Part shown: piece after piece, positions 4,427 to 24,212 of the stretch
Layout of the letters: each line of letters begins with the position of its first letter
Position numbering within the stretch: position 1 is the first letter of the stretch
Position numbers and translations under genes: made by a program
The notes under the pieces: model-generated
What the model was told of the DNA's origin: nothing
Seen by the model: only the letters and a program-made list of their open reading frames with translations
Database searches by the model: none
Origin: a virus
Lineage: Duplodnaviria; Heunggongvirae; Uroviricota; Caudoviricetes
IMG/VR virus record: IMGVR_UViG_2537562190_000013
DNA: 43,776 nt
Direction: 5' to 3' (one strand)

Positions 4427-4752
4427 TATTTTTTCCAGAGGCGGTCGAACTCCGCCTTCGCAAAATAAGCGGAAGCCTGGCGAAGGATATCGTTACTGCG
4501 GCGCAGTTCACGATTTTCACGTTCCAGCTCTTTCAGACGCTGACGTTCAGCGGTGGTGAGTCCACCATCACCACTCCCGGTATCCCGCTCATGCTGGCGA
4601 ACCCAGACACGCAGAGTCTCCGGCGTACAGCCAATCTTTGGGGCAATGGAACAAATTGCCGCCCACTGTGAGTCATATTCATCCTGACTTTCCAGAACCA
4701 TACGAATCGCCCGCTGACGGACTTCGGGGGAAAAACGAGTATTTTTAGTCAT
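4426..4752 (-). CDS. IS3-family transposase OrfA (HTH, leucine-zipper region)
   Basis: 108-aa [22 protein letters not shown]...; overlaps orfB across an AAAAAA slippery stretch, typical of -1 frameshift-generated OrfAB. Confidence 0.85.
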
Positions 4753-5684: not shown

Positions 5685-5740
5685 TTTCTTTACCTTCAGG
5701 ATTATATTAGCTATTCTGATACTTAGGCTACCAGAGCATT

Positions 5741-6952
5741 TTATCTTTGAGCTTGAACGTAATCACTCCACCATTGCATCAAACTCTGTCGCTCTATCAG
5801 ATATTCTGCACGATTGTATGCTGCGATAATTTCATCTTTTTTCGAGTGGGCAAGCGCTGCCTCAAGAACTTCAGCTCTGAATTTACCAGACTCCTCTGCC
5901 GCTGTTCGTGCAATAGAACGCATACCGTGAGCTACAAGCTCGCCTCCGAACCCCATTCGGATGATAGCTGCGTTGGCTGTTTGTTCATGCATATGATTAA
6001 GAGGCGCTTTTATGCTGGGGAAAACCCATTCTCTATGCCCACTTATTGATTTCATTAATTCAAGGATGCGCAAAGCTTCTTTACTCAAAGGAACTTTGTG
6101 AAGCTTTTTCATTTTCATGAAATCAGCAGGAATGTTCCAAATGCTGTTGGTTGTATCAATATCAGACCACCTTGCGCGAACGGCTTCACCCGGACGAACC
6201 CATGTCAACAATTGCCATTCAATTAGCATACGTGTTTCCAACCGGATTGACGCATTCGTCAAAGATTCCATAAACCTTGGCAATTCGCTTGGGGGAAGGG
6301 CAGGCATATTTTGCTTTTTTGGTTTACTGAATCTTTGACCAAGGTTGTCAGCCGGGTTGAACTCAATAAGTTCTTCAGTAGCTGCCCACCGGAAGATTTC
6401 ATTCAGACGTGAAATGATACGGCGTAGAGTTTCCAATACGCCTCGTTGCTCAATAGGATCAAGGTGTTGTTTTAAGAGCTTAGGTCGGATCTCATTGATA
6501 GGGACATTACCCAGACCGGGAAAGACATTTCTCTCTAAGCTGCGCCAGATGTCTGCTGCATGGTCTTGTGAGATACCTGATGTCTTTACCTTCTCATCTA
6601 ACCATTTCCGCGCTACGGCTTGGAGAGTGTGCTCAGTAGCACTCTTTAATGCCTTCGCCTTATCGTTGTTATGGATTTGGGGATCAACACCATTTGCCAG
6701 AAAGGAGAGATATTCATCACGTAAGGCTCTGGCTCTTGCAAGGGTAAGGTGAGGATATGTCCCAAGGCTCATTTTGGTTCTTTTCTTGCTCACTGGTACT
6801 GCATACCTGAAATACCAATTTTTCTTGCCTCCTTTCGCCAAAGGAGCGATTCGTAGAATCAGACCATCACCGTCAAACAAGTTGATTTCTTTATCGGCTG
6901 GCTTGGTGCTTTTGATTTCAGTGTCAGTGAGCTTCTTAGCGATTTTTGCCAT
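5741..6952 (-). CDS. int: Tyrosine recombinase / P4-type integrase
   Basis: N-terminal arm-binding-like MAKIAKKLTDTEIKSTKP...LFDGDGL; C-terminal catalytic-domain-like motifs; ATG at 6952 has a GAGGG ribosome-binding site; the track ORF extends to 6994. Confidence 0.85.
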   Translation of the reverse strand: MAKIAKKLTDTEIKSTKPADKEINLFDGDGLILRIAPLAKGGKKNWYFRYAVPVSKKRTKMSLGTYPHLTLARARALRDEYLSFLANGVDPQIHNNDKAKALKSATEHTLQAVARKWLDEKVKTSGISQDHAADIWRSLERNVFPGLGNVPINEIRPKLLKQHLDPIEQRGVLETLRRIISRLNEIFRWAATEELIEFNPADNLGQRFSKPKKQNMPALPPSELPRFMESLTNASIRLETRMLIEWQLLTWVRPGEAVRARWSDIDTTNSIWNIPADFMKMKKLHKVPLSKEALRILELMKSISGHREWVFPSIKAPLNHMHEQTANAAIIRMGFGGELVAHGMRSIARTAAEESGKFRAEVLEAALAHSKKDEIIAAYNRAEYLIERQSLMQWWSDYVQAQR

Positions 6953-7117
6953 TTTGGGACCCTCGGTTTTTGGACCCTTCTTAGTGGGTCCCATTCAGGG
7001 TGCCATAACTCGTAGTTCTCAGCAATTCTCACTGGACGACAATAGACGTAAAAAAGCCCGCAGAGCTTGTGCTGTGTGGGCTTAGTAGACTTCATTGAAC
7101 TTCAAACAACTAAAAAG

Positions 7118-7149
7118 TGGTGGAGCTGGCGGGAGTTGAACCAGCGTCC
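7118..7149 (-). other. att core: 32-bp copy of tmRNA (ssrA) 3' end (T-arm plus acceptor stem plus CCA), not a complete gene
   Basis: Minus-strand reading GGACGCTGGTTCAACTCCCGCCAGCTCCACCA; sequence further upstream does not continue as tmRNA. Confidence 0.7.
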
Positions 7150-7239
7150 ATTTGTTTTTAATTTATTGATTTTTATTGTTTTATTTTATTTCTCGCATGC
7201 TTCGTGTACTTCACGTATCCTTTTTAAGGAAATATATAT

Positions 7240-7905
7240 TTATGGATTCTTGCTTAAAAAATATTCGAAGTTATGGTTGCCAAGCACATACCTCATTTCT
7301 CCCCGTGTGCGGTAAAAAGAAGTTTGAATCTCATCAACATAGTAGTTAAAAAAAATCTTTAACATTTCGGTAGTCATCTTTTGCAAATGGGTTGACAGTT
7401 TAGCTGCATTACTTTTTGAATCAGACTTTAATAAATCTGGAAATGATGCTGTGATATTTAATTTAACTTTAGATGATGAGTGTAACCAGCCACATGCTTG
7501 TTTATACTGTGAATGCATGTACGCCCAGTTTTCATCAGTGTTGGTAGATTTAAGATTCTCGAAATCAAGAGTTCTAATTGTAATATCGAAATCCCCCCCG
7601 TTATCAACTTTTTGTAAGGATATACGTGCAAGATGTTCAATCATTGAGCGAAAATTAAGATGAAGATATCGCTCTCGTTTATGAAGTATCGCTGTAATTG
7701 AACTTAAAACATCATAAATAATACTTTTTATAAAGGTTTTGTGACTTATTTCTGGATGTGAGTTATGGATAAACTCCAGAAAAAGTACATGTTTATAAGC
7801 CGATGTAAGATTGTTTTCGGTGCGAATATCGACCTGAAATGATTTTATCATTGTGATAAATTCTTTCACGTCTTTTCTAAATCCATGTGGGTCTCTTTGA
7901 AGCAT
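7240..7905 (-). CDS. Hypothetical protein, third gene of ParA-like operon
   Basis: 221-aa ORF; start ATG overlaps upstream stop (TAATG); AT-rich; no recognised motifs. Confidence 0.55.
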   Translation of the reverse strand: MLQRDPHGFRKDVKEFITMIKSFQVDIRTENNLTSAYKHVLFLEFIHNSHPEISHKTFIKSIIYDVLSSITAILHKRERYLHLNFRSMIEHLARISLQKVDNGGDFDITIRTLDFENLKSTNTDENWAYMHSQYKQACGWLHSSSKVKLNITASFPDLLKSDSKSNAAKLSTHLQKMTTEMLKIFFNYYVDEIQTSFYRTRGEMRYVLGNHNFEYFLSKNP

Positions 7906-8318
7906 TATTTTCTATCCTTCTTCAAAAGAGCATTAATCCACGTACCTACATCTCGATTTGCATTACGTTTGACGTTACTTTTTTTAAAAGTAAGTGAGTT
8001 TTCATTATATCCAATAATAAATTTGTCAGTTTTAAAATACTCTGATGCTTTATATATGCATTCTTTAATGTCTCTCTCGCTCATATTTACAAGATTACGG
8101 GTAAGTCTAGCGCATAATAAAGTTCTTGACTTGATGACGTAGTCTAAGAAACTTAATCCAAATACATTTTTTACGAATTCTGCTGCATCTTCATTTTTAA
8201 CAAAAATTTCCCTAGAATAGATTGCTATTGTTATCAAACCAATAAACGCTTCTTTTGACGAGGGCTTCTTATAAACCAATGTCTGTAATAATTCGAGGTT
8301 GTTACTATTTTTATTCAT
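7905..8318 (-). CDS. Hypothetical protein, second gene of ParA-like operon
   Basis: 137-aa ORF overlapping ParA-like gene by 8 nt; AT-rich; no recognised motifs. Confidence 0.55.
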   Translation of the reverse strand: MNKNSNNLELLQTLVYKKPSSKEAFIGLITIAIYSREIFVKNEDAAEFVKNVFGLSFLDYVIKSRTLLCARLTRNLVNMSERDIKECIYKASEYFKTDKFIIGYNENSLTFKKSNVKRNANRDVGTWINALLKKDRK

Positions 8319-9162
8319 CTTCCCCCCCCGTTTGCACTTCTTGGATCCGACTTAAAAACTCTTCACAAATCGCTTTGATATATTTTCTGGATGATTTATA
8401 ACTTGATGATATATTACCTCTACCACCCACCATCAAATCCTGTACAAACTTCAACTGGTTATCAAAAAAGTATAGTTCATTAAAAGGTTCAGTACTTTCA
8501 AAGTCTGTCTTTAGCTTTTTTGTCTTTTTTGATAGATTTTCTAGGGTATTAGTATAAATAAAACCAAGGTTTTGAATGTTTTTATGGTCATAATTATCTT
8601 GAATGTTTTCTATTACGCTTAAAAGACTTGTCGCACCTAAAATTGAGTAGTGGTCAATTTTAACTGGCACAATATAATAATCTGAAGCAACGAGAGCTGC
8701 ATCAGTAAATAATGAAATGGTTGGTGGGCTATCGATCAAAATGAAGTCATATATATCTCGAAGCTTATGTTCTTCTATAAAGCGTTTTAGCTTATGTAAT
8801 CTTGCCGCAGGTTGTTCAATATCAAATATTGTATTAATATCACCAAAAATCATATCTAAGTGCTCTGACATCTTGATGATAATTTCATCAGGAGTGACCT
8901 GCTGAACTTTACCCGTTAAGCTTGATTTTGTCTCGAATATTCGTCTGATGGTTTTTGTATTTTCTAAGTGATCAGCTATATACTCTTTCACTCGATCATA
9001 TTTACTAAGTATTGACTGTGTAGCGTTAAATTGTGGGTCAATATCGATAATTAATACCTTTTTATCCATGAAGTTTGCAAGATATTCAGCAATGCCGACG
9101 CATAAAGTTGTTTTACCAACCCCACCTTTCATATTTATGAAACTTATTACTGGTGTAGTCAT
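8311..9162 (-). CDS. ParA/MinD/Soj-family P-loop ATPase (small, type Ib-like, no N-terminal HTH)
   Basis: Deviant Walker A MKGGVGKTT, A' motif IIDIDPQ, Walker B FILIDSPP; GGGA ribosome-binding site. Confidence 0.75.
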   Translation of the reverse strand: MTTPVISFINMKGGVGKTTLCVGIAEYLANFMDKKVLIIDIDPQFNATQSILSKYDRVKEYIADHLENTKTIRRIFETKSSLTGKVQQVTPDEIIIKMSEHLDMIFGDINTIFDIEQPAARLHKLKRFIEEHKLRDIYDFILIDSPPTISLFTDAALVASDYYIVPVKIDHYSILGATSLLSVIENIQDNYDHKNIQNLGFIYTNTLENLSKKTKKLKTDFESTEPFNELYFFDNQLKFVQDLMVGGRGNISSSYKSSRKYIKAICEEFLSRIQEVQTGGEDE

Positions 9163-9412: not shown

Positions 9413-10588
9413 CTACTTTTTGCAATTACTTGTGAGCGTTGTTGAGCTGTGGTTGTCATAATCACTCAAGTAACGCCCATAATGACGAAACAACATTTCG
9501 GGCCCCTTATGCCCCATCTGCCCTGCTAGCCAGAAGAGATTAGCTCCTTGGCTAATGTACTTAGTAGCATAAGTGTGCCTGGTCTGATATGGGTTTCTGT
9601 AGCGAATACCTGCTTTTCGCAATGTTGGCACCCATGCTTTTTTCCTGATTGCATCAGCACTTGCCCAAGGCTTATTGGTCTTTGGATCTTCAAAGACCGT
9701 AGCATCTTTCATGAACGTAAATGGCTTCTGATTTATCAGCGCCAACATTGCCTCTTCTGTCAGTTCAACTTTACGAGTACCGGCTTTTGTTTTGGTCCCT
9801 TTGATAACACCAACAACACTTGCGCTCTGGACATGTGCTGTTTTTCCAACAAAGTCGATATCACGCCATCGAAGGGCACATAGTTCAGAACTACGCAGGC
9901 CTGTATGTATAGCGAACCGGAACAGATTTTCCCATTGTTTGTTTCCGGCTGCTGCTAGTAATGCATCAACTTCTGCTGGTGATAGCGGATCAACCACATA
10001 GCTGCTTTCTGCTTCTGACTTATCACTTTGGTAGCGCGAAGCTGTTACTAACGATACGGGGTTAATTTGAAGTACCCCATCGGTCACGGCTTCATCAAGT
10101 GCTGACCGCAGGAAAGATAACTGGTTGCGAATGGTTTTTAAGGTTGTTTTCTGGCTTTGAATCCACGCTTTCAGGGTTGCTGGTGTTAATTCACTTGCAG
10201 GGCAAATGTGAAGTGAGGCTAACGCACTACGGCATTTTTTATAGCCACCAATCGTAGAGGGTGAAAGTTTTCTTGTTTCGCAGATTTCAAGATATTCGTC
10301 CAGGTACATCTTTACCGTTTTGCCTGCAGCAGCATTACCAAAAATTTTCAAACGAGCAGAACGGGGAAAATATTCTGCATAAATGAATGTTCCCCTTTCG
10401 ATCTTATTATGGATTTCGCCGAGTGTACGCTCGGCGTATTTAATGTTCTTTGGTGTTACTTCCAGATTGGAAAGCGGCTCACGACATCTAACTCCTTTGT
10501 AGGTGAAAGTTATATTGATCGTTTCGCCCTGGCGGTGTTTCCTGATTGTTACGCCGCGCGGTAGTTTGAGCAGTTTTGTCTGGCCCAT
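9413..10588 (-). CDS. int: Prophage tyrosine integrase
   Basis: 391-aa ORF with C-terminal catalytic-domain-like motifs (...HTGLRSSEL..., ...TRHTYAT..., ...LAGQMGHK...); overlaps the upstream xis-like gene. Confidence 0.85.
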   Translation of the reverse strand: MGQTKLLKLPRGVTIRKHRQGETINITFTYKGVRCREPLSNLEVTPKNIKYAERTLGEIHNKIERGTFIYAEYFPRSARLKIFGNAAAGKTVKMYLDEYLEICETRKLSPSTIGGYKKCRSALASLHICPASELTPATLKAWIQSQKTTLKTIRNQLSFLRSALDEAVTDGVLQINPVSLVTASRYQSDKSEAESSYVVDPLSPAEVDALLAAAGNKQWENLFRFAIHTGLRSSELCALRWRDIDFVGKTAHVQSASVVGVIKGTKTKAGTRKVELTEEAMLALINQKPFTFMKDATVFEDPKTNKPWASADAIRKKAWVPTLRKAGIRYRNPYQTRHTYATKYISQGANLFWLAGQMGHKGPEMLFRHYGRYLSDYDNHSSTTLTSNCKK

Positions 10589-12933: not shown

Positions 12934-13314
12934 TTAATGACCTGCTGCGCGGAGTTTTCCGTCAGGTTCACCGGCAAGAGTCAGTAATTGTCCCTGGTCT
13001 TCCTGCAGAATAGTCAGGCGACCACCGCGATTGACATACATCGGCGTTTCGGTGGTGTCTTCTTCAGAAATTTTCCCGCGGTTAGTCGGGCGAACATATG
13101 AGAGTTTGTGTTTGATTTTCACACGGTTCTCATCAAATGGTTCGATTTCCAGGTTGAGTGAGACCTTACCTTTGGTTTTCGTGTTCATCACACCGGAAGC
13201 GACTTCACTGAGAACTGCGCCGATTTTGGTTTCAAATACGCCGCCGTCCAGCTCCCCGATAAATGCCTGCACATCAGTACTGCGTTCGCTAGCCATTTTG
13301 CTGCTCCTCATCAT
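12934..13314 (-). CDS. Hypothetical early-left protein (YfdP-like)
   Basis: 126-aa ORF. Confidence 0.45.
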   Translation of the reverse strand: MMRSSKMASERSTDVQAFIGELDGGVFETKIGAVLSEVASGVMNTKTKGKVSLNLEIEPFDENRVKIKHKLSYVRPTNRGKISEEDTTETPMYVNRGGRLTILQEDQGQLLTLAGEPDGKLRAAGH

Positions 13315-13733
13315 ATCGACCCTGCAAGGCCGATTAGTTTCTCCACAAAACAGAGAAGAACACCTGCGGTGGCAGCCGCCCGGATGGATTGGGTTATGAG
13401 CCCGTCGTCCGGTGATGCTCTTCTCTGTTTTGTAAAAAGGACGCTACCAGCCGGAAGCAAGGGTACAAACTGGTACCGCCAGGACTACACACAGCATAAA
13501 GTTGTGGTGCCGGGTGCCTCCCGGTGCCTGGCGAAGGTTGCACACCAGACGGGTGGGTATCCACAGAAGGTCGACTGTCAGCCTCAACCTTAACCCGCGT
13601 GCGCTGAGCCGCATTCACCACAACGCTAAGGATTCTCTTTGGTTGAAAATACTTAGCTGTTATGTGCCTGTCTTTTCACCACTTCAGGCTCGGTGGTATC
13701 CTTTTAAGCCCGTATACATAAAAGGAAAATCAA

Positions 13734-13979
13734 ATGACTTTTGATGAAAAAGAACTTGATAATGCAATTAATAAAATCATCGTAACGTCGCTCTTTTCCT
13801 GTCTCAGCGACACTCAGCAGAAACGGTTCTACGAATCGGCTTTCAACATGATCGAGCGTTGTTGTTTCTGCGATGCCGACGAGTTACCTGAAAAAATCAG
13901 GAAACAGTTGGCTGATGCTCTTCGAGTGCGACTTTCTGACCAATTTTCTGAAATGTGCTCTCCGAATTTGGACAAATAG
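13734..13979 (+). CDS. Hypothetical small protein
   Basis: 81-aa ORF with AAGGA ribosome-binding site 7 nt upstream; convergent overlap with 13897-14172. Confidence 0.4.
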   Translation: MTFDEKELDNAINKIIVTSLFSCLSDTQQKRFYESAFNMIERCCFCDADELPEKIRKQLADALRVRLSDQFSEMCSPNLDK

Positions 13980-14172
13980 AAAAAGGCCATTTCCATTCAG
14001 GGTCTGATGGAAATACTTCAGCCTGTTCCAAAGCACGGCGTAAAGAGAACACAACTCCAGCCATAATCTGATGTTTCCCATTGGTCCAGCTATCGCCGCT
14101 CTGATCTACAGGGGCGGCTATGTCGTATGACCAAACGACTTCACAGTTATTGTTTAAAATCTGGACTTTCAT
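13897..14172 (-). CDS. Hypothetical protein, first gene downstream of the putative leftward early promoter (N/rex position), not N-like
   Basis: ATG at 14172 with AGGTG ribosome-binding site; 91 aa; no arginine-rich motif. Confidence 0.45.
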   Translation of the reverse strand: MKVQILNNNCEVVWSYDIAAPVDQSGDSWTNGKHQIMAGVVFSLRRALEQAEVFPSDPEWKWPFSICPNSESTFQKIGQKVALEEHQPTVS

Positions 14173-14299
14173 TTCATACACCTGCTTTAACATGAGTGCC
14201 TGATGGCACAACATGACTCAACGAATCATCCTGGACTTCATATGCCCCAGGCGGCTACTTCGTGGGCGTCCTGCCTGTTCGTTATCTTTGATATAAAAT

Positions 14300-14313
14300 C
14301 TAACTTAACTTAG
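14300..14313. promoter_or_regulatory. Operator-like site CTAACTTAACTTAG (oL-like) overlapping a candidate leftward promoter
   Basis: Shares the CTAA-N5-CTTAG pattern with the two sites in the cI-cro intergenic region. Confidence 0.45.
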
Positions 14314-14378
14314 TTATTATGGCAAGAGAAAACACCAAACTTTTCTTAGTTCGGTGCCTTAGTTAGAGAAGAGAGGTC

Positions 14379-15005
14379 TTAGAGTTCGTATTGAACTCCT
14401 TTGACTACACCAATGATAAGGCAATTACCATTGATAGGGATGTTGGGATACCGAGGATTTAATGGCACTAAAAACTTTTGAGGGCCATCGATGACTAATT
14501 TTTTTACTGTAGCTTCGTTTGTTCCATCAAGTCGAGCGATGACTATTTTTCCATGACGAGGTTCTGCATCTGGATCTACAATCACTGTTGCGCCTTCTGG
14601 TATTGTTGGGAGGCCATTAGGGTTAGTCATGGAGTCACCTTTAACCTCTAATGCAAATGAGTTATCACCAATCTTTAATGATGTATCTACCCACTTGTCC
14701 ACTTCACTAAACACTTCTGCTGCCCTGCACTCAGTAAACTGCCCAGCCTGAACCCACGATATTACAGGAACTCTGCGCATGTTTGTGACGAGTTTGCCTT
14801 CAAACTCAGCACCATAAAGAATGTAATCTATTGACGTATTGAAGAACTTCGCTAATTTCGAAAGTGCCTCCCCACCAGGGGTATTGATGTCTTTCTCCCA
14901 GTACCCCACAGCAACGTCGCTTACTCCACAAAATTTACCCAATTCTTTCTGGGACGTTCCGGTAACTCTTCTCAGAGCTTTTATACGCTGACCAACCGTT
15001 TCCAT
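14379..15005 (-). CDS. cI: CI-like prophage repressor (N-terminal HTH, C-terminal S24 LexA-like peptidase domain)
   Basis: HTH segment QKELGKFCGVSDVAVGYWEKD; S24-like GDSM serine motif and C-terminal Lys (VKKL); divergent from a cro-like gene. Confidence 0.85.
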   Translation of the reverse strand: METVGQRIKALRRVTGTSQKELGKFCGVSDVAVGYWEKDINTPGGEALSKLAKFFNTSIDYILYGAEFEGKLVTNMRRVPVISWVQAGQFTECRAAEVFSEVDKWVDTSLKIGDNSFALEVKGDSMTNPNGLPTIPEGATVIVDPDAEPRHGKIVIARLDGTNEATVKKLVIDGPQKFLVPLNPRYPNIPINGNCLIIGVVKGVQYEL

Positions 15006-15027
15006 AGGAGCACCATTTCTTGAATTG

Positions 15028-15090
15028 CTAAGTAATCTTAGTTTTTATTGACCAAAGATAGATTTGTAATTAGCATCTAATAAAACTTAG
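15028..15090. promoter_or_regulatory. oR-like operator region: two 14-bp sites CTAAGTAATCTTAG (15028-15041) and CTAATAAAACTTAG (15077-15090) between cI and cro
   Basis: Palindromic half-sites CTAAG/CTTAG in the divergent promoter region. Confidence 0.5.
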
Positions 15091-15102
15091 TTTGGAGGGC
15101 GT

Positions 15103-15303
15103 ATGACAACTGACGATATCGAAAGCTACTTCGGCAGTATTGAGAAAGTTGCTGCTTTTTTCGGCATAACAACTGAAGCCGTTTATCAGTGGCGAAACCG
15201 TCCGGGCCAGTTAATTCCAAAAGGACGTGCAGCAGAAGCTGCATATAGAACTTGCGGACGGTTGCCATTTAAACCTGAGCTTTATGAAAAATCTAATGGA
15301 TAA
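15103..15303 (+). CDS. cro: Cro-like small HTH regulator (YdaS-like)
   Basis: 66-aa ORF, GGAGGG ribosome-binding site, divergent from cI; HTH-like segment AAFFGITTEAVYQWRN. Confidence 0.7.
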   Translation: MTTDDIESYFGSIEKVAAFFGITTEAVYQWRNRPGQLIPKGRAAEAAYRTCGRLPFKPELYEKSNG

Positions 15304-15892
15304 ATCGATTAACAGAAACCACAGAACGATGAGGCTAACCGTGGGTAAGCATCACTGGAAAGTAGAAAAACAGCCTGAGTGGTACGTGAAAGCTGTCAGA
15401 AAAACTATCGCAGCGTTGCCGGGTGGTTACGCTGAAGCAGCTGACTGGCTGGATGTAACAGAAAACGCATTATTTAACCGCCTTCGTGCCGATGGCGATC
15501 AGATTTTCCCGCTGGGATGGGCAATGATTTTGCAACGTGCTGGTGGAACTCACTTCATTGCTGACGCTGTGGCGCAGTCTGCAAATGGCGTCTTTGTGTC
15601 TCTTCCTGACGTCGAGGATGTGGACAACGCCGATATTAACCAGCGCCTGCTGGAAGTCATTGAACAGATTGGCAGTTATTCCAGACAGATTCGTTCGGCA
15701 ATCGAAGACGGTGTGGTGGAACCGCATGAGAAGACAGCAATTAACGACGAGCTGTATCTCTCAATTTCGAAGCTGCAGGAGCATGCAGCACTGGTCTACA
15801 AAATCTTTTGCATTTCAGAAAGTAATGACGCCCGCGAGTGTGCAGCTCCGGGCGCCGTGGCGTGTCGTGACTGTGGAGAAACTAACGCATGA
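15296..15892 (+). CDS. CII-position regulatory protein (YdaT-like), start uncertain
   Basis: ATG overlaps cro stop (ATGGATAA); ORF continues to 15892. Confidence 0.45.
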
Positions 15893-17669: not shown

Positions 17670-18322
17670 TGAGTAATAAATATTGCCAGGCGCTGGTGGA
17701 ACTGCGGAACAAACCAGCCCATGAACTGAAGGAAGTGGGCGATCAGTGGCGCACGCCGGATAACATTTTCTGGGGAATTAACACCCTGTTTGGCCCGTTT
17801 GTTCTGGATCTGTTCACTGACGGTGATAACGCCAAATGTGCCGCGTATTACACGGCGGAAGACAACGCGCTGGCGCATGACTGGTCAGAACGTCTTGCGG
17901 AGCTTAAAGGTGCTGCCTTTGGTAATCCCCCATACAGCCGCGCCAGTCAGCATGAGGGGCAATACATCACAGGCATGCGTTACATCATGAAGCATGCCAG
18001 TGCCATGCGTGATAAAGGTGGGCGCTATGTTTTCCTGATCAAAGCTGCCACCAGCGAAGTGTGGTGGCCGGAAGATGCAGATCATATTGCTTTTATTCGC
18101 GGGCGTATCGGTTTTGAACTGCCTGCCTGGTTTATCCCGAAGGATGAGAAGCAGGTGCCGACAGGCGCTTTCTTCGCTGGTGCTATTGCTGTTTTCGACA
18201 AGACCTGGAAGGGACCGGCAATCAGCTACATCGGGCGCGATGAACTTGAGGCATGTGGTGAGGCCTTTCTGGCGCAGGTTCGCCAGCAGGCAGAAAAACT
18301 GGTCAGGGAGATGGTGGCATGA
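17669..18322 (+). CDS. Phage orphan DNA N6-adenine methyltransferase (Dam-like)
   Basis: Catalytic NPPY motif (FGNPPYS); ATG overlaps upstream stop (TAATG). Confidence 0.75.
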   Translation: MSNKYCQALVELRNKPAHELKEVGDQWRTPDNIFWGINTLFGPFVLDLFTDGDNAKCAAYYTAEDNALAHDWSERLAELKGAAFGNPPYSRASQHEGQYITGMRYIMKHASAMRDKGGRYVFLIKAATSEVWWPEDADHIAFIRGRIGFELPAWFIPKDEKQVPTGAFFAGAIAVFDKTWKGPAISYIGRDELEACGEAFLAQVRQQAEKLVREMVA

Positions 18323-18645
18323 CGACGTTAACTCAATGCCAGCAGCAGGTGCTGGATATGCTGATTTCTTATCAGAAAGAACGTGGCTTCCCGCCAACCA
18401 ATCAGGAGGTGGCAACCATGCTGGGATACCGTTCAGTGAATGCAGCGGTAGAACATCTTCGCGCACTGGAGAAAAAAGGCGTCATCACGATAAAGCGTGG
18501 CGTGGCCCGGGGCATCACGCTTCATACCGCGGTGAAGGACGACGACAGCGAGGCGGTCGGGATTATCCGCTCACTGCTTGTCGGTGAGGAAAACGCCAGG
18601 CTGCGTGCAGCCCACTGGTTACATGAGAGGGGCCTGAAAGTATGA
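18319..18645 (+). CDS. LexA N-terminal DNA-binding domain protein lacking the peptidase domain
   Basis: QQQVLDMLISYQKERGFPPTNQEVATMLGYRSVNAAVEHLRALEKKGVI closely parallels LexA residues 1-70; only 108 aa. Confidence 0.7.
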   Translation: MTTLTQCQQQVLDMLISYQKERGFPPTNQEVATMLGYRSVNAAVEHLRALEKKGVITIKRGVARGITLHTAVKDDDSEAVGIIRSLLVGEENARLRAAHWLHERGLKV

Positions 18646-19031
18646 AGCTGATCCTGCCTTTCCCGCCCAGCGTGAACACGTACTGGCGACACCCCAACAA
18701 AGGGGCGTTTGCAGGTAAGAGCCTGATAAGCGCGGCGGGGCGCAAATTCCAGAGCGCGGCGTGTGCAGCAATAGTTGAGCAGTTACGTCGTCTGCCAAAA
18801 CCAACGTCGGCACCTGCTTCAGTGGAGATCGTGTTGTTTCCTCCGGATAACCGGATCCGCGATCTGGACAACTATAACAAGGCGCTGTTTGACGCCCTGA
18901 CCCACGCGGGTGTGTGGGAAGACGACAGTCAGGTGAAAAGAATGCTGGTGGAGTGGGGACCGGTTATCCCGGAAGGGAAGGTCGAGATCACTATCAGTAA
19001 GTACGAGAAACCGGCGGGTGCAGCCGCCTGA
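18642..19031 (+). CDS. rusA: RusA-family Holliday junction resolvase
   Basis: PFPPSVNTYW and DLDNYNKALFDALTHAG...DDSQV motifs. Confidence 0.85.
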   Translation: MKLILPFPPSVNTYWRHPNKGAFAGKSLISAAGRKFQSAACAAIVEQLRRLPKPTSAPASVEIVLFPPDNRIRDLDNYNKALFDALTHAGVWEDDSQVKRMLVEWGPVIPEGKVEITISKYEKPAGAAA

Positions 19032-19050
19032 TTAAGAGGAGAAACGAAGT

Positions 19051-19848
19051 ATGAATAATCTGATGGTTATTGATGGTATTGAAGTTCGTCGTGATGCTTA
19101 TGGGCGTTACAGCCTGAACGATCTGCACAGGGCTGCCGGTTCTCTGGATAAACATAAGCCTGCATTCTGGCTCCGCAATGAGCAAACCGAACGTTTAATA
19201 AGCGAGTTGCAAATTTGCAACTCGGTCAATATGGCGCCAGTTAACGTTATTCGTGGCGGAAATAACCAAGGGACGTATGTCTGCAAAGAACTGGTGTATG
19301 CCTATGCAATGTGGATCAGCCCGTCATTCCATCTGAAGGTGATCCGTACTTTCGATATGGTAACCAGCACACCGGAAAAATTATCCGGGCAGGCTGCTGA
19401 CAAGATGCAGGCTGGCGTGATCCTGCTGGACTTTATGCGCCGGGAGTTAAATCTGTCTAACTCTTCAGTGCTTGGTGCCTGTCAGAAACTCCAGGAGGCT
19501 GTTGGCTTACCGAATCTGGCACCGCGCTATGCCATTGATGCTCCTGCTGACGCGCCTGATGGCTCAAGCCGCCCCACGCTGTCACTGAGTGCACTGCTGA
19601 AGCAGTATGGTATCCGCCTGACAGCTAATCAGGCATATCACCAGATGGCGAAGCTGGGGATCGTTGAACAACGCGAACGATACAGCCGTACCGCGATTAA
19701 CAACATCAAAAAATTCTGGTCGCTGACGGCGAAAGGCTGCATGTTCGGCAAGAACATCACCAGTCCTGCAAATCCGCGCGAGACGCAGCCGCATTTCTTC
19801 GAATCCCGATTCCCTGAGCTGTTAAAGCTACTCGATACCGTTCATTGA
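19051..19848 (+). CDS. KilA-N domain protein (antirepressor-like)
   Basis: N-terminal KilA-N-like region ...YSLNDLHRAAG...KPAFWLRNEQTERLI... Confidence 0.6.
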   Translation: MNNLMVIDGIEVRRDAYGRYSLNDLHRAAGSLDKHKPAFWLRNEQTERLISELQICNSVNMAPVNVIRGGNNQGTYVCKELVYAYAMWISPSFHLKVIRTFDMVTSTPEKLSGQAADKMQAGVILLDFMRRELNLSNSSVLGACQKLQEAVGLPNLAPRYAIDAPADAPDGSSRPTLSLSALLKQYGIRLTANQAYHQMAKLGIVEQRERYSRTAINNIKKFWSLTAKGCMFGKNITSPANPRETQPHFFESRFPELLKLLDTVH

Positions 19849-19849
19849 G

Positions 19850-20845
19850 GTGACCGTGAGAGCACTACTGACCCCTGAAATTGCCCCGCGTATGGGGATC
19901 GTATTGTTCAGGCCAGGTTCAGAGCTGATGCCCCTGTTTATGCAGGGGCGTGTCCTGCTGGAGCCAGAGCCGGAACGTTATTCATCTTTCGCCAGTGGTG
20001 CCGTTCCGGCGGCAACACAACCGCTGGCGGATGATCCTGCCGTTCGGACCGTGTTCCGCAATGAGGCAGTGATCCGTCGTGCTGGTGGCGTGGAATGTCA
20101 TGAAAGCTGGTTACTTCGTGAAAAGGGCTGTCAGTGGCCTCATTCTGACTGGCACAGCGAGAACATGACCACAATGCGGCACGCTCCGGGAGCAATTCGT
20201 CTGTGCTGGCACTGCGATAACCAGCTGCGTGACCAGTTCACGGAACGGCTGGAATCAATGGCAACGGATAACTGTGCCCGCTGGGTGTTGTCTGTCGTGC
20301 GTCGGGATCTCGGTTTTGATGACAGTCACGTTGTGACAATGCCGGAACTGTGCTGGTGGCTGGTTCGTAATGATCTGGCGGATGCCTTACCGGAAAGTGC
20401 AGCCCGTAAGGCACTGAGATTACCGAAGCCTGTTGTGCCATCTGTCACCCGGGAAAGTGACCTTGTGCCTTCGGTTCCTGCCACCAGCATCATCCAGGAT
20501 AAGGCGAAAAAGGTGCTGGCGCTGAAAGTGGATCCGGAGTCGCCGGAGTCTTTTATGTTACGCCCAAAACGTCGCCGCTGGGTTAATGAAAAGTACACGC
20601 GCTGGGTTAAGACGCAGCCGTGTGCATGTTGTGGAAAGCCTGCTGATGATCCCCACCATCTGATAGGCCACGGTCAGGGGGGAATGGGTACAAAAGCGCA
20701 TGATCTCTTTGTGTTGCCTTTGTGCAGAAAGCATCACGACGAGCTGCATGCGGATACCGTGGCATTTGAAGAGAAGTATGGCTCCCAGCTGGAGTTGATA
20801 TTTCGTTTTATCGATCGTGCGCTGGCAATTGGTGTGCTGGCCTGA
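19850..20845 (+). CDS. DUF968-family prophage protein (YdfU-like) with C-terminal Cys/His cluster
   Basis: CACCGKPADDPHHLIGHG...LCRKHHDELH motif block. Confidence 0.6.
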   Translation: MTVRALLTPEIAPRMGIVLFRPGSELMPLFMQGRVLLEPEPERYSSFASGAVPAATQPLADDPAVRTVFRNEAVIRRAGGVECHESWLLREKGCQWPHSDWHSENMTTMRHAPGAIRLCWHCDNQLRDQFTERLESMATDNCARWVLSVVRRDLGFDDSHVVTMPELCWWLVRNDLADALPESAARKALRLPKPVVPSVTRESDLVPSVPATSIIQDKAKKVLALKVDPESPESFMLRPKRRRWVNEKYTRWVKTQPCACCGKPADDPHHLIGHGQGGMGTKAHDLFVLPLCRKHHDELHADTVAFEEKYGSQLELIFRFIDRALAIGVLA

Positions 20846-20847
20846 TT

Positions 20848-21219
20848 TTGTGGAGAAAGTTGATGCGTGATATGTATGAAGTAATGGATCGTTGGGGAGC
20901 TTGGGCTGCTTCAGACAATAGCGGAGTGGACTGGCAGCCGATAGCGGCTGGTTTCAAGGGACTTTTACCTCATGGCAAAAAGTCACGGATTCAGTGTGAT
21001 GATGACGAAGGCATCATGATAGACAGTTGTGTGGCTCGGTTGAGAAGGTATAAACCAGAGGAATATGAGCTCATCATCGCCCACTTTGTTATCGGTATCT
21101 CATTACGCACTATTGCGAAGAAGAGAAAATGCTCTGATGGCACAATTAGGAAGGAACTGCAAACTGCAATGGGGTTTGTTGACGGCTGTTTAGCAATGTT
21201 AGCTTATAGTATGGCATAA
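20848..21219 (+). CDS. Q: Late-gene antiterminator Q (small Q family)
   Basis: MRDMYEVMDRWGAWAA...WQPIAAGFKGLL... pattern recalled from E. coli prophage Q proteins; sits upstream of the lysis cassette. Confidence 0.7.
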   Translation: MWRKLMRDMYEVMDRWGAWAASDNSGVDWQPIAAGFKGLLPHGKKSRIQCDDDEGIMIDSCVARLRRYKPEEYELIIAHFVIGISLRTIAKKRKCSDGTIRKELQTAMGFVDGCLAMLAYSMA

Positions 21220-22413
21220 AAAATAAAATAGATTTACTGCCGATTTTTCAAAAAAGACTGGGAACTGTTTATATCCAACGTAAATAAGGCCTCCATAAAA
21301 CATGGCTGATGCGAGATATTTAACAGTTCTCATCCTTTTTTTAGCTTTATCAATCAAACCTGTAATGCTACTCTTAATACTATCTGCATTATCTTTGATT
21401 TCTTTATTTTCTTCAAACTTTAAATACTTATCGAAAGCGGACTCCACTCGAGAACGTAAGTTGTCGAATGTTTCATTGAATATCTCAATAGAAATGTAAT
21501 TGACTTTTTTTATCATCCAAAGTCCTGCGATAATCAATATTGCTTCGGTTGTTTCATTAGCCTTCACTAAGCCACCAGCAGCTATTAATGCACCGGGAAT
21601 AGTCAATGCTTTTGTCTGATTAGATGATATGAATTCGTTAATTTTACTCGTGAACTCAAGATTTTTCTCATCGAGTTCGTTAAGAATTTTATTTACAGAA
21701 AACCTCTTTGTGTAAATCTCATATAGTTCATCATATTTTTTCCTGACGAGTTCAGTAGAGTTAAGCAAGTCAAAGAAATTGAACGTACCATTTGCTTTAA
21801 ATACTTCGTTTATGGCTGAGCGTATAACGAGCTTGCGCTCGCTTTTGTGTAAATCATTGATTTTTATTGTGTCGAGAAGCTCCTTTATAATTTCATATTT
21901 AAGAGACGAGTTCGATAAGCGATTAATCTCGCTATATTGTAAAAAATGCGTGAGTTCGACTGTATAACTTTTGTCTTCATTGGTGAAAAATAAGACAGAG
22001 CAGTCACTGTTATGATGATCAGCAATTAATGAAAGGATATCTTTCCACATAAAGAAAATATGGATTTTTTCGATGCTTTCATTCTTAGAAGTAGGGAGTA
22101 TTAACGGCGTTCCGATGATATAATTTTTCGGAAGAGCGTTTTGGGTGTTTACTCTAGACCAAAAAGACTCAACATTCTCATAAATTATAGCGTCATCCCA
22201 AGATGAAGCTTGGCGATCTAGCCAAATTTCATTATTTTCGATGCAGGTTGTTGCCTTTTTATAACCTATAGATTGTAACAGTCTAATTATTTCAGAACTA
22301 TTTACAATAACAATGCTTTCTTCAAGACTTATGACAGTGTAGTAGCCCTCAACTCTGCTTGAGGCTCCGTTAATAATCTGCGCTAATCTTGATAAGTCAT
22401 CAGCAATTGTCAT
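21199..22413 (-). CDS. Hypothetical protein with C-terminal hydrophobic segments; second gene of Q-lysis cassette
   Basis: 404-aa AT-rich ORF; hydrophobic stretches ALTIPGALIAAGGLV, AILIIAGLWMI, LASAMFYGGLIYVGY; 3' end overlaps the Q 3' end convergently. Confidence 0.6.
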   Translation of the reverse strand: MTIADDLSRLAQIINGASSRVEGYYTVISLEESIVIVNSSEIIRLLQSIGYKKATTCIENNEIWLDRQASSWDDAIIYENVESFWSRVNTQNALPKNYIIGTPLILPTSKNESIEKIHIFFMWKDILSLIADHHNSDCSVLFFTNEDKSYTVELTHFLQYSEINRLSNSSLKYEIIKELLDTIKINDLHKSERKLVIRSAINEVFKANGTFNFFDLLNSTELVRKKYDELYEIYTKRFSVNKILNELDEKNLEFTSKINEFISSNQTKALTIPGALIAAGGLVKANETTEAILIIAGLWMIKKVNYISIEIFNETFDNLRSRVESAFDKYLKFEENKEIKDNADSIKSSITGLIDKAKKRMRTVKYLASAMFYGGLIYVGYKQFPVFFEKSAVNLFYFLCHTIS

Positions 22414-22415
22414 TA

Positions 22416-23591
22416 TTAGCTGTCTCTATATCTTTTGAGTTCATCATAATTTGCCTGACTCAATTTTATCACAATTTCGCATTTGTTGTCAGTGAGAATT
22501 ACAGGCTTATTTGACTTTTCGTCTCCAATAGCTCCACGCATTATTTTCAACTTAAAATTATTGTCGTTATCTGCCACTTCAATTGTAAGCGCGCTTTCAG
22601 CTGCTTTAGGAGTTGGTTCAAATTGAGGGTCAATCTGGAAACCATTAAGATTAACAAAATCGACAAACGTTCCCTTACATTTGTGTGAATCAGTCAGGCA
22701 TGAGTCAATTATTTTTGAAATATCCTCTATCTTAACGGACTTATTTCCGTGTTTATCTTTTGATTTTTTTTCCAGTAAGGATTTAACTTCATTGTCAATA
22801 GTATCACGCAGTACACGACCGAGTGAGTTTTTACTAGCAAAAATATCTATAGCACTGAATAATTGCTGAATGCTTCTTTTATTGTCCGAATCATGTCGGC
22901 AACCTAATGAGTCTTTGAAAAAATCGCTTTTAGATTTACCTTGCAAGAAATGTACATATGAGTCACCCTTGTTTTCTGGATAACTGGCTTCGAATAAAGT
23001 TAAATCGAACATCGCAGCCTGCCGTAAGGCATCGGTATTAATTGGATTTAATCTTGTTGGGGTCAACTTATCCGAATCAAAGTCATAGGCGCTTTGTTTA
23101 TCAACCATTACGATTAGAAGTTTCCCCAAATCCTCTGGTTCGGTAGACTTATAGTGGATGAAAACAACGCTCCCCCCCTGAAGTTGGGCAACTCTCGATT
23201 CGTTATTAGCATTATGTTTAAGCTTCTCTATTATAGCTCTAGATAAATCAATGAATTCATTATTTTTATTAATGTATTTTTTTAGGATCGTAGGAATGGA
23301 TGAAGGGTTGTGATCTGAGTCTAGGAAGTTATGAAATTTGTTTTTTCGGCTAAATTTTTTCTCAATTCTGGTTATGAATTCAGATGTGACTTCATTTTTT
23401 AGATCCCAAACTTCACCTAATCGATAATCAAATGCTCTTGAATCATTTTTTTCAAGATTTGCTGTTACAGCACCAATAGGAAAGTACGATTGTTTGCCCA
23501 GCACTACAACATGAGGCGTGGCACCGCATTTATCGCAAGCTACAGTTGGGTCGTCAAGAACATTGCCACATTCTAAACAAGTTATATCCAT
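22416..23591 (-). CDS. Zinc-ribbon plus NdpA/YejK-like (nucleoid-associated protein family) domain protein; first gene of Q-lysis cassette
   Basis: N-terminal CLECG...CDKCG; central GGSVVFIHY ... DLTLFE ... YVHFLQGKSKSDFFKDSLG block resembling the YejK family as recalled. Confidence 0.55.
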   Translation of the reverse strand: MDITCLECGNVLDDPTVACDKCGATPHVVVLGKQSYFPIGAVTANLEKNDSRAFDYRLGEVWDLKNEVTSEFITRIEKKFSRKNKFHNFLDSDHNPSSIPTILKKYINKNNEFIDLSRAIIEKLKHNANNESRVAQLQGGSVVFIHYKSTEPEDLGKLLIVMVDKQSAYDFDSDKLTPTRLNPINTDALRQAAMFDLTLFEASYPENKGDSYVHFLQGKSKSDFFKDSLGCRHDSDNKRSIQQLFSAIDIFASKNSLGRVLRDTIDNEVKSLLEKKSKDKHGNKSVKIEDISKIIDSCLTDSHKCKGTFVDFVNLNGFQIDPQFEPTPKAAESALTIEVADNDNNFKLKIMRGAIGDEKSNKPVILTDNKCEIVIKLSQANYDELKRYRDS

Positions 23592-24209: not shown

Positions 24210-24212
24210 TTT

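What the first reader, a model, noticed from the sequence alone, without database searches (positions are those of the whole stretch)
13897..14215. Non-N protein occupies the first position of the leftward early operon
The first gene transcribed leftward from the candidate oL-like promoter encodes a 91-aa protein without an arginine-rich motif, in the position where lambda has N. Its function is unknown; possibilities include a regulator or an exclusion factor.
Basis: inference. Interest (0 to 1): 0.35.

Follow-up and report, generated by a model that had tools for sequence, protein, structure and literature searches.

The report
Non-N first gene behind leader RNA
The 91-residue protein is a real, repressor-controlled first gene of the prophage's leftward early operon; it is not an N-type antiterminator but one half of a swappable convergent gene pair of unknown function, and it sits just behind a widespread, unannotated structured leader RNA that may explain why no N is needed.

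Summary
The ORF is real. Its conserved start is at 14172, so the CDS is 13897-14172 on the minus strand (91 aa). It is the SfV orf33 / phrog_3195 family. It is acidic (pI 4.95) with 2 Arg, so it has no arginine-rich motif. A promoter with operators shared with oR lies upstream.

Codons 1-64 are under strong purifying selection. The C-terminal tail is unconstrained and overlaps a convergent, also selected, 81-aa gene 'B' (13734-13979, plus strand). A and B travel together down to 35% identity, always as the first gene after a repressor.

Pfam, NCBIfam, PADLOC, PDB and fold searches gave no function.

First, 14213-14286 (minus strand) is a covariation-supported structured RNA ('E1') at the 5' end of the pL transcript. 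It has no Rfam match and is unrelated to HK022/HK639 put by covariance model. It occurs in 34% of complete E. coli genomes and in 77 scanned genome loci, mostly Enterobacterales. At least 41 different first-ORF clusters follow it. Second, the slot after E1 holds interchangeable convergent gene pairs.

Best reading: A is an accessory immediate-early protein coupled to B, and N's task is probably done by E1 (inferred). The protein alone is of modest interest; the RNA and the slot are more interesting.

The parts
13897..14172 (-). Gene A: 91-aa CDS (SfV orf33 / phrog_3195 family). Conserved core is codons 1-66 (about 13975-14172). Codons 65-91 (13897-13980) are an unconstrained tail that overlaps gene B.
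   Evidence: ORF. PGAP CDS. phrog_3195 at E = 8e-70. Conserved MKVQ start. Codons 1-64 pS 0.83-0.88 vs pN 0.18-0.20; codons 65-86 omega 0.8-1.0. AF2 pLDDT about 70-75 for residues 1-60 and below 50 for residues 65-68 and 70-91.
13734..13979 (+). Gene B: 81-aa convergent partner (phrog_3311). Its 3' end overlaps gene A by 83 nt. PGAP does not annotate it in this genome.
   Evidence: ORF. phrog_3311 at E = 3.6e-55. Codons 1-46 pS 0.81-0.86 vs pN 0.19-0.20; codons 47-74 omega about 0.32. Homologues are convergent and overlapping with every A homologue examined.
14213..14286 (-). E1: structured leader RNA at the 5' end of the leftward transcript. An outer 6-bp stem P1 encloses hairpin P2 (loop GACGCCCACGAAGUAG) and hairpin P3 (5 bp, loop GGCAUAYGAAnn), followed by AUGA.
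   Evidence: Covariance model hit of 91 bits, the only strong copy in the window (next best 13 bits). On 97 distinct sequences, 90% of cells pair, 10 of 14 pairs change on both sides, 0 of 500 shuffles reach the observed score, and slid controls give 15-40% pairing. Repeated on 83 genome hits. No Rfam match.
14297..14325 (-). pL-like sigma-70 promoter: -35 TTGCCA (14325-14320), 17-nt spacer, -10 TAGATT (14302-14297). Inferred transcription start near 14290.
   Evidence: Consensus scan, 9 of 12 matches. The same position relative to E1 holds an 11/12 promoter in SfV and a 10/12 promoter in L003. The start site is inferred, not mapped.
14300..14351 (.). oL-like operators: CTAACTTAACTTAGTT (14300-14315, overlapping the -10 and spacer) and CAAACTTTTCTTAGTT (14336-14351, upstream of the -35).
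   Evidence: Repeat families D1 and D3 are shared with the cI-cro intergenic region. The motif occurs 4 times against 0.05 expected.
15028..15092 (.). oR-like operators: CTAAGTAATCTTAGTT (15028-15043) and CTAATAAAACTTAGTT (15077-15092), between the repressor gene and cro.
14379..15005 (-). CI-like repressor (HTH_3 plus Peptidase_S24), immediately upstream of pL on the same strand.
   Evidence: Pfam PF01381 and PF00717. PGAP 'LexA family protein'.
13640..13705 (+). Conserved 'block L' bounding the slot on the left. It contains an extended -10-like TGGTATCCT (13694-13702), about 30 nt upstream of the gene B ATG. It is a candidate shared promoter for the rightward gene of each cassette.
   Evidence: Conserved across cassettes whose coding parts are only 60-70% identical. 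Found 460-973 nt downstream of E1 in 38 loci. The reverse-gene ATG lies 25-36 nt from the block in 10 of 11 cassette types. Promoter function is inferred.
13431..13646 (-). STnc100/PasD-like sRNA region, ending in a terminator-like hairpin (about 13441-13481) followed by five U. It lies in the pL operon between the cassette and yfdP, and overlaps a PGAP 'frameshifted' ymfH-like pseudogene (13311-13621).
   Evidence: Rfam RF02076 at 34.1 bits, E = 3.4e-5, below the gathering score of 47. Hairpin fold. PGAP pseudogene.

Best explanation
Gene A is a genuine accessory immediate-early gene. It is transcribed from a repressor-controlled pL-type promoter as the first ORF of the leftward operon: A, an sRNA-like region, yfdP, yfdQ, yfdR and onward to xis/int.

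Its product is a small acidic protein. The functional part is the first ~64-66 residues (a beta-hairpin followed by a long helix). The remaining residues are a by-product of reading into the antisense of the convergent gene B.

A does not do N's job. The element at the N/nut position that is conserved across this phage group is the RNA E1. I infer that E1 acts in cis on the elongating polymerase, in the way put does. This would carry transcription through the convergent traffic and the terminator-like hairpins to xis/int.

A and B form an obligate convergent pair placed between two facing, conserved transcription start regions (pL-E1 and block L). The proposed logic is as follows. B is made from block L while pL is repressed (lysogeny). 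When pL fires, transcription across B and the 3' antisense overlap shut B down, and A is made. The A protein then neutralises B's product or its effect, so the phage's own lytic cycle is not harmed by a lysogen-phase function.

Shown: the gene is real; promoter-like site and shared operators upstream; the position; the unconstrained tail; obligate pairing with B; the cargo nature of the slot; the E1 structure.

Inferred: expression timing, block L as a promoter, E1 as an antiterminator, and the A-versus-B antagonism.
For: - **Real gene with a conserved start:**
- **Promoter and operators:**
- **Driven by pL, not by the repressor's promoter:** in SfV and L003 a canonical terminator follows the repressor gene, and a strong promoter and E1 precede A.
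- **Induction of the positional analogue:** e14 ymfJ is induced late in SOS (LFC 4.8) together with intE at the far end of the operon. The convergent ymfI rises much less (PMC11002266).
- **Not N:** no ARM and pI 4.95; no boxA in the leader.
- **Cargo, not core:** A follows E1 in only 21 of 124 E1 loci, among 41 first-ORF clusters. A also occurs without E1.
- **Conserved position:** A homologues at 35-66% identity sit directly after five different repressor types.
- **Pairing with B:** a B homologue is convergent and overlapping in every case examined, including at 35-43% identity, and B is under purifying selection.
- **General slot design:** about 11 cassette types between E1 and block L are nearly all convergent overlapping pairs, with the reverse ATG 25-36 nt from block L.
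- **E1:** covariation. It starts within about 10 nt of the predicted transcription start in three unrelated promoter contexts.
- **Something to read through:** terminator-like hairpins lie downstream in the operon.
- **No N gene:** none is annotated in the window or in the E1 phages examined.
Against: - There are no expression data for this locus. The transcription starts, block L promoter activity and read-through are all unmeasured.
- The window itself has no terminator between the repressor gene and pL, so A could also be made at a low level in lysogens.
- Co-inheritance of A and B may simply follow from their physical overlap. At least one reverse gene (MTKEEKILYLFQ) is seen with two different forward ORFs.
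- No homology or fold match links A or B to any toxin, defence, antitoxin or anti-defence family. The AF2 model is only moderate (pLDDT 61.7).
- E1 has only one strong copy in the window, with none in the pR operon, whereas HK022 has putL and putR. It shows no covariance-model similarity to put.
- A 5'-terminal structure could instead stabilise the mRNA.
Confidence: 0.35

Rival explanations
1. A is an anti-defence or host-takeover protein that acts on a host target independently of B, in the manner of lambda Ral or Kil or T7 Ocr. It sits first in the operon so that it is made immediately on infection or induction. B is an unrelated moron that shares the slot only because two promoters face each other there.
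For: It is first in a repressor-controlled early operon. It is small, acidic and non-DNA-binding in appearance. The slot is hypervariable, with at least 41 first-ORF clusters, as expected for arms-race genes. The only first-slot family with a known function is Kil, a host-directed early protein. Physical overlap alone could explain A-B co-inheritance.
Against: B stays with A down to 35% identity, across five immunity types and across genera. No similarity to any known anti-restriction or anti-defence protein was found in Pfam, PHROGs, PDB or BFVD.
Confidence: 0.3
2. A is a lysogenic-conversion or superinfection-exclusion factor. It would be expressed in the lysogen by read-through from the repressor's maintenance transcript, positionally like rexAB or HK022 nun.
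For: A lies immediately downstream of the repressor gene on the same strand. In this window no terminator-like site lies between the repressor stop (14379) and pL. HK022 nun occupies the same position behind putL.
Against: In SfV and L003 a canonical intrinsic terminator separates the repressor gene from pL-E1-A. The operators overlap the promoter. The e14 positional analogue is SOS-induced, not constitutive. There is no ARM and no membrane segment. There is no PADLOC hit.
Confidence: 0.1
3. A is a lysis-lysogeny modulator: either cIII-like protection of the CII-like YmfL protein, or a small transcription or anti-repressor factor.
For: It is in the early-left operon, as cIII is. It has a long helix at residues 34-52. 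A CII-like gene is present.
Against: A is dispensable cargo, present in 21 of 124 E1 loci. It has no HTH or other DNA-binding signature and no similarity to cIII. The pairing with B is left unexplained.
Confidence: 0.1
4. A is a divergent N-like antiterminator that lacks an ARM and works with the E1 RNA as its nut site.
For: It occupies the N position directly behind a structured leader RNA.
Against: It is acidic, with 2 Arg. E1 is near-invariant while the gene behind it varies among 41 clusters. A homologues occur without E1. There is no boxA.
Confidence: 0.03
5. The ORF is not a gene but an antisense shadow of gene B or a chance ORF.
For: The C-terminal 27 codons evolve as expected from B's frame only (omega 0.8-1.0). 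Many database copies have frameshifted tails.
Against: Codons 1-64 lie outside B and show saturated synonymous change against low non-synonymous change. The Shine-Dalgarno sequence and start are conserved. The family is conserved to 35% identity with invariant Trp, Pro and Gly residues.
Confidence: 0.02

Closest known systems
Lambda N / nutL (first gene of the pL operon)
   Same: Same position: first ORF downstream of a repressor-controlled leftward promoter, with an RNA element in the leader between promoter and gene.
   Different: There is no arginine-rich motif; the protein is acidic, not basic. The leader has no boxA/boxB. The gene is interchangeable cargo rather than an essential regulator. 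The conserved partner of the promoter is an RNA (E1), not this protein.
HK022 putL-nun arrangement (and HK639 putL-like RNA)
   Same: Both are N-less lambdoid phages. A structured RNA of about 60-75 nt lies immediately after pL, followed by a non-N first gene. Terminators lie downstream in the operon.
   Different: E1 does not match putL, putR or HK639 putL-like under the covariance model. E1 has a closing stem around two hairpins, not two side-by-side stems. No second copy is found in the pR operon. Nun has an ARM and A does not. Antitermination by E1 is untested.
SfV orf33 / phrog_3195, and e14 ymfJ-ymfI as the positional analogue
   Same: A is the same family as SfV orf33 (same DNA at about 99% identity). 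e14 carries an unrelated convergent overlapping pair (ymfJ/ymfI) in the same slot between E1 and block L.
   Different: ymfJ/ymfI share no sequence similarity with A/B. None of these proteins has an assigned function.
Phage 'morons' and prophage defence hotspots next to the repressor (rexAB, sieB, BstA)
   Same: It is a variable accessory slot adjacent to the immunity region. The rightward gene appears to have its own promoter.
   Different: The cargo here is consistently a convergent, 3'-overlapping two-gene pair bounded by two conserved blocks. The leftward member is under pL/oL control rather than expressed in the lysogen. There are no PADLOC matches.

Membership tests
Lambda N-type antiterminator proteins | N-terminal arginine-rich motif in a basic, small protein | tested here: not met
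   2 Arg in 91 residues, pI 4.95, and no Arg cluster.
Lambda N-type antiterminator proteins | nut site (boxA plus boxB hairpin) in the leader | tested here: not met
   The boxA consensus YGCTCTTWA is absent from 13300-15400; there are only two chance-level hits elsewhere. The leader is occupied by E1.
Lambda N-type antiterminator proteins | First gene of the repressor-controlled leftward early operon | tested here: met
   Promoter and operators at 14297-14351, and first ORF downstream.
SfV orf33 family (phrog_3195) | Significant full-length profile match | tested here: met
   E = 8.2e-70, residues 8-105 against profile positions 1-98 of 98. About 99% DNA identity to SfV across orf33.
put-type cis-acting antiterminator RNAs (HK022 putL/putR, HK639 putL-like), tested for E1 | Located at the 5' end of the early transcript, just after the promoter | tested here: met
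   E1 begins within about 10 nt of the predicted start in the window, SfV and L003. Start sites are predicted, not mapped.
put-type cis-acting antiterminator RNAs, tested for E1 | Sequence and structure homology to put | tested here: not met
   The E1 covariance model gives no hit on HK022 putL/putR or HK639 putL-like with filters off (best L011 match 9 bits, not at putL or putR; best L134 match 8.9 bits, not at putL-like). The architecture differs.
put-type cis-acting antiterminator RNAs, tested for E1 | Copies in both early operons (L and R) | tested here: not met
   There is one strong copy in the window at 91 bits; the next best hit is 13 bits.
put-type cis-acting antiterminator RNAs, tested for E1 | Suppresses downstream terminators without phage protein and depends on the RNAP beta' zinc-binding domain | not testable with these tools
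   This needs reporter or in vitro transcription assays. Only the presence of downstream terminator-like hairpins could be shown.
Known anti-phage defence proteins (PADLOC-DB), tested for A and B | Profile match to a defence-system component | tested here: not met
   No hit for A. B gives only E = 0.035 to PDC-M02B.
Rfam STnc100 (RF02076), tested for 13431-13646 (minus strand) | Covariance model score at or above the gathering threshold | tested here: inconclusive
   34.1 bits against a gathering score of 47, E = 3.4e-5, full-length model match.

The most novel reading that the evidence does not exclude
E1 is a second, structurally unrelated class of protein-independent processive antiterminator RNA: a functional analogue of HK022 put. 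It would license the early-left transcripts of N-less lambdoid prophages in Enterobacterales. The slot it opens onto (E1 to block L) would be a dedicated docking site for convergent 'lysogen gene / lytic antidote' pairs, of which A/B is one. On this reading A is the lytic-phase antidote to a lysogen-expressed function of B.
Probability: 0.25. Interest if true: 0.8.

Novelty: new variant of a known kind. Interest (0 to 1): 0.5.

Why it matters
The protein by itself is an already-catalogued hypothetical (SfV orf33), and N-less lambdoid phages are known.

The context matters more. A covariation-supported RNA sits at the very start of the early-left transcript, with no Rfam match. It is present in about a third of complete E. 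coli genomes and in 77 of the genome loci scanned, mostly Enterobacterales, and no feature was annotated under the match in any E. coli genome row listed or in most phage records.

If that RNA modifies RNA polymerase as put does, it would show that RNA-only antitermination is common rather than a curiosity of HK022. It would also make the question directly testable in e14 of E. coli K-12.

The convergent two-gene slot offers a simple, testable design for genes that must be on in lysogeny and off, or neutralised, in lytic growth. It also flags dozens of small protein families as candidates for defence and self-immunity pairs.

Tried and rejected
1. **Longer start codons (105 aa at 14214, 98 aa at 14193).** Rejected. 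Only the MKVQ start is conserved, and only it has a Shine-Dalgarno sequence.
2. **Intrinsic terminator inside A.** The hairpin at 13988-14015 plus the T-tract GGCCTTTTTCTATTT could be one. The hairpin is not conserved in L003 or L007. The T-tract encodes the invariant W-P-F-S motif, so it is more likely protein constraint.
3. **E1 as a put homologue.** The short shared strings (CGAAC.GGC, CAGGATGA) looked promising. The covariance model finds no match in HK022 or HK639.
4. **E1 as a small ORF.** ATG AAG TCC AGG ATG ATT CGT TGA is not conserved in L003 or L007 (seen in the alignment).
5. **Second E1 copy in the pR operon.** None found.
6. **Homology between A/B and the other cassettes** (ymfJ/ymfI, the 68-aa gene with ECs1072). 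None found.
7. **Function from databases.** Pfam, PHROGs, NCBIfam, PADLOC and a PDB sequence search gave nothing for A or B.
8. **Structure.** The 8-sequence alignment gave pLDDT 49 and the 14-sequence alignment gave 61.7. Foldseek against PDB and BFVD gave no hit with E at or below 0.001.
9. **Long proteins with repeated weak matches to residues 2-24 (P0058, P0060, P0061).** Judged to be beta-hairpin repeat similarity, not homology.
10. **Literature.** No paper in the library contains the E1 core string. King et al. 2011 (the HK639 put paper) and Mehta et al. 2004 (e14) could not be read.
11. **Exact 18-mer hits outside Enterobacterales** (Gemmatimonadota, Bacillota and others). These score only about 22 bits over the core and are chance matches.

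Full report
**What is at the coordinates.**
- The window is 100% identical to a prophage in the E. coli 2015C-3163 chromosome.
- The prophage is of the SfV/e14 type. It has:
  - an integrase at 9413-10588 (minus strand);
  - a CI-like HTH and S24 repressor at 14379-15005 (minus strand);
  - cro at 15103-15303;
  - a CII-like ymfL;
  - a Q-family late antiterminator at 22178-22534;
  - an SfV-like myovirus structural module.
- No N gene is annotated.
The maximal ORF is 13897-14214 (105 aa).
- The true CDS is 13897-14172 (91 aa). All homologues, including those at 35-66% identity, begin MKVQ. That ATG has a Shine-Dalgarno sequence (AGGTG, 6-nt spacing, with an equivalent GAGGA in diverged copies). 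The sequence upstream of it is not conserved. PGAP calls the same 91-aa CDS.
- The protein is acidic (pI 4.95) with 2 Arg, so the 'no arginine-rich motif' observation holds.

**Promoter and operators.**
- A sigma-70-like promoter, TTGCCA-17-TAGATT, lies at 14325-14297 on the minus strand.
- The 16-nt motif CWAA-N5-CTTAGTT occurs exactly four times in the window. Two copies overlap or flank this promoter (14300, 14336). Two lie between the repressor gene and cro (15028, 15077). Chance expectation is 0.05. The motif was derived from these sites, so this number is descriptive.
- This is the expected oL/oR arrangement, so the gene is positionally where lambda has N.
- In the window no terminator-like site separates the repressor stop from pL.
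- In SfV and in a Rac-like prophage (L003) that carry the same gene behind other repressors, the order is different. A canonical intrinsic terminator follows the repressor gene. Then comes an 11/12 or 10/12 promoter, and then the gene. This argues that the gene is built to be driven by pL and not by the maintenance promoter.

**Is it a gene?**
- Yes, but only in part. Comparing the window copy with copies 60-64% identical (L003, L007), codons 1-64 have pS 0.83-0.88 against pN 0.18-0.20.
- Codons 65-86 give omega 0.8-1.0. This stretch overlaps a convergent plus-strand ORF, 'B' (13734-13979, 81 aa, phrog_3311).
- B is itself under purifying selection: codons 1-46 have pS 0.81-0.86 and pN 0.19-0.20, and in the overlap omega is about 0.32.
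- So A's tail is shaped by B's frame. This fits the many frameshifted or extended tails in the databases and the low AF2 confidence beyond residue 64.
- The invariant W-x-W-P-F-S motif at residues 60-65 ends the conserved core.

**Family and function searches.**
- The family is small: 19 clusters at 90% identity, and 20 representatives at 50% identity among 1.84 billion proteins.
- It hits phrog_3195 (unknown function). It hits nothing in Pfam, NCBIfam or PADLOC, and nothing significant among PDB sequences.
- AF2 with a 14-sequence alignment gives pLDDT about 70-75 for residues 1-60: a beta-hairpin at 2-6 and 12-17, a short helix, and a helix at 34-52. Foldseek finds nothing at E of 0.001 or below in PDB or BFVD.

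**Context of homologues.**
- In every locus examined, A homologues are the first gene after a repressor gene, on the same strand and divergent from a cro/YdaS-like gene. This holds across at least five repressor types and both YfdP/Q/R-type and RecE-type left arms.
- In every case a B homologue is convergent and overlaps A's 3' end.
- The Cys/His-rich tails of distant A homologues are the antisense of B's CC(Y/F)CDAD motif (direct reading of the codons).
- The A/B DNA is present in 340 of 5,426 complete E. coli genomes at 80% or greater coverage.

- Aligning the cassette from five loci showed a block of about 60 nt. It is nearly invariant although the promoters upstream and the genes downstream differ.
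It is also found in 49 phage records, including SfV, SfII, SfIV, mEp460, mEp237, ST64B, SPN3UB, SEN34, phiNP, YeP1-3 and ZF40. No feature is annotated under the match in most of these records.
- On 97 distinct sequences, a structure with an outer stem P1, a short P2 and a 5-bp P3 is 90% paired. 10 of 14 pairs change on both sides (336 cells). 0 of 500 shuffles reach the observed values. Slid controls fall to 15-40% pairing. An independent set of 83 genome hits gives the same result.
- G.U pairs fit the leftward transcript only.
- P2 is weak, and its 3' strand competes with P3. I could not resolve this.
- A covariance model finds one strong copy in the window (14213-14286 on the minus strand, 91 bits). 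It finds no match to HK022 putL/putR or to the annotated HK639 putL-like RNA.
- Rfam 15 has no match. The core string is in no paper of the library.
- The model finds 77 full-length copies (69-93 bits) among the 100 genome loci scanned, mostly in Enterobacterales. blastn finds E1 in 1,845 of 5,426 complete E. coli genomes, with no annotated feature under the match in any of the 30 listed rows.
- E1 starts within about 10 nt of the predicted transcription start in three unrelated promoter contexts.

**The slot.**
- Downstream of E1 the first ORF falls into at least 41 unrelated clusters in 124 loci, and A accounts for 21 of them. Only one of the ten clusters tested has a known function, Kil.
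- Upstream, 87 of 113 loci have a CI-like S24 repressor.
- In the SfV/e14 subgroup the slot is closed 460-973 nt downstream by a second conserved block, 'block L' (window 13640-13705).
- Between E1 and block L there are about 11 cassette types. Nearly all are convergent 3'-overlapping pairs, including e14 ymfJ/ymfI and a 68-aa gene paired with an ECs1072-family gene.
- The reverse gene's ATG lies 25-36 nt from block L in 10 of 11 types. Block L contains TGGTATCCT, an extended -10-like element. I infer that it is a shared promoter for the rightward genes.
- Beyond block L lies an STnc100/PasD-like sRNA region (34.1 bits, below the gathering score). It ends in a terminator-like hairpin. A second terminator-like hairpin lies between yfdQ and yfdR. 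pL transcripts therefore have obstacles to pass on the way to xis/int.

**How it most likely works.**
- Shown: A is a real gene. A promoter-like site with operators shared with oR lies directly upstream of A and E1. A is not N-like. A is interchangeable cargo. A is always paired with B. E1 is a structured RNA at the 5' end of the transcript.
- Supported by analogy: in e14, ymfJ (same slot, behind E1) is induced late in SOS (LFC 4.8) together with intE and ymfM. The convergent ymfI rises much less (PMC11002266).
- Inferred: E1 takes the place of N/nut by acting in cis on the elongation complex. B is expressed from block L in lysogens. pL transcription silences B by collision and 3' antisense. 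A's product neutralises B or its effect.
- My probabilities are:
  - about 0.8 that A is an accessory early gene rather than a regulator of antitermination;
  - about 0.35 for the A-versus-B toggle as stated;
  - about 0.35-0.4 that E1 is an antiterminator.
- The main rival (0.3) is that A is an anti-defence or host-directed early protein unrelated to B.

**Comparison with known systems.**
- The arrangement works most like HK022: no N, a leader RNA, and a non-N first gene.
- Membership in the put family fails on homology and on copy number.
- A is a member of the SfV orf33/phrog_3195 family, which has no known function.
- The slot resembles moron or defence hotspots next to immunity regions. 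It differs in its consistent convergent two-gene design.

**Verdict.**
- The protein alone is of modest interest: a known hypothetical family in a known kind of N-less phage.
- The leader RNA and the convergent cargo slot found while checking it appear undescribed in the resources available here, and both are experimentally tractable in E. coli K-12 e14.

Noticed in passing
window 14213-14286 (minus strand); also L001 4814-4887, L003 3832-3905, L009 3748-3821 (e14) and many others: E1 is a conserved structured RNA of about 74 nt at the start of the leftward early transcript. It is supported by covariation and has no Rfam match. It is in 1,845 of 5,426 complete E. coli genomes and in 77 scanned genome loci, mostly Enterobacterales. 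At least 41 different first-ORF clusters follow it. It is not homologous to HK022/HK639 put.
   Followed up: yes
window 13431-13646 (minus strand): Full-length but sub-threshold match to Rfam STnc100 (34.1 bits against a gathering score of 47, E = 3.4e-5), ending in a terminator-like hairpin plus five U. It overlaps the PGAP 'frameshifted hypothetical protein' at 13311-13621 and the region annotated as ymfH in e14, so ymfH may be a mis-called sRNA locus. A 2026 preprint relates STnc100 to the prophage sRNA PasD.
   Followed up: partly
window 13640-13705 (plus strand): A conserved block bounds the variable slot. It contains a hairpin (ACCAC...GTGGT) and an extended -10-like TGGTATCCT. In 10 of 11 cassette types the rightward gene starts 25-36 nt from it, which suggests a shared promoter. 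It could instead, or also, be the promoter of the leftward sRNA-like region.
   Followed up: partly
window 13345-13369 and 13409-13433: A 25-nt inverted repeat (84% complementary, 39-nt loop) lies just upstream of yfdP on the leftward transcript. Its function is unknown; it could be an RNase III site or a further terminator. It gave a spurious Rfam MIR1094 hit.
   Followed up: no
L010 2666-3278; L009 3139-3726; other loci: The same slot in other prophages holds unrelated convergent, 3'-overlapping gene pairs: ECs1072 family with a 68-aa gene, ymfI/ymfJ, and about eight more. This points to a general two-gene cargo design.
   Followed up: partly
window 20690-21903, 18642-19033, 3539-4752: An IS3-family element interrupts the DUF968 gene just upstream of Q. 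The RusA gene is frameshifted. A second IS3 copy lies left of the prophage. The prophage is probably defective.
   Followed up: no
window 22514-24906 (minus strand): Two leftward genes (a 404-aa hypothetical and a 391-aa 'nucleoid-associated protein') sit between the Q antiterminator and the lysis genes, where Stx phages carry their cargo. They may form a moron or defence module.
   Followed up: no
window 18319-18645 and 19053-19850 (plus strand): A small LexA-family regulator and a KilA-N domain protein lie in the right operon. This resembles LexA-controlled antirepressor modules of other temperate phages.
   Followed up: no
window 5723-9162 (minus strand): A second integrase with ParA-family and hypothetical genes lies immediately left of the prophage integrase. 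This suggests a tandem or satellite integrative element at the same site.
   Followed up: no
L108, L120, L017, L078: Some prophages retain only a 15-codon stump of gene A (MKVQILNNNCEVVWA*) next to a different cassette. This is evidence of recombination inside the slot.
   Followed up: no
Providencia phages vB_PreS_PR1 and PSTCR5 (hits H98-H101): A partial E1-like match (48 nt, 84% identity) occurs in large Providencia phages (109-119 kb). In one of them it lies in an annotated repeat region, far from the lambdoid context.
   Followed up: no
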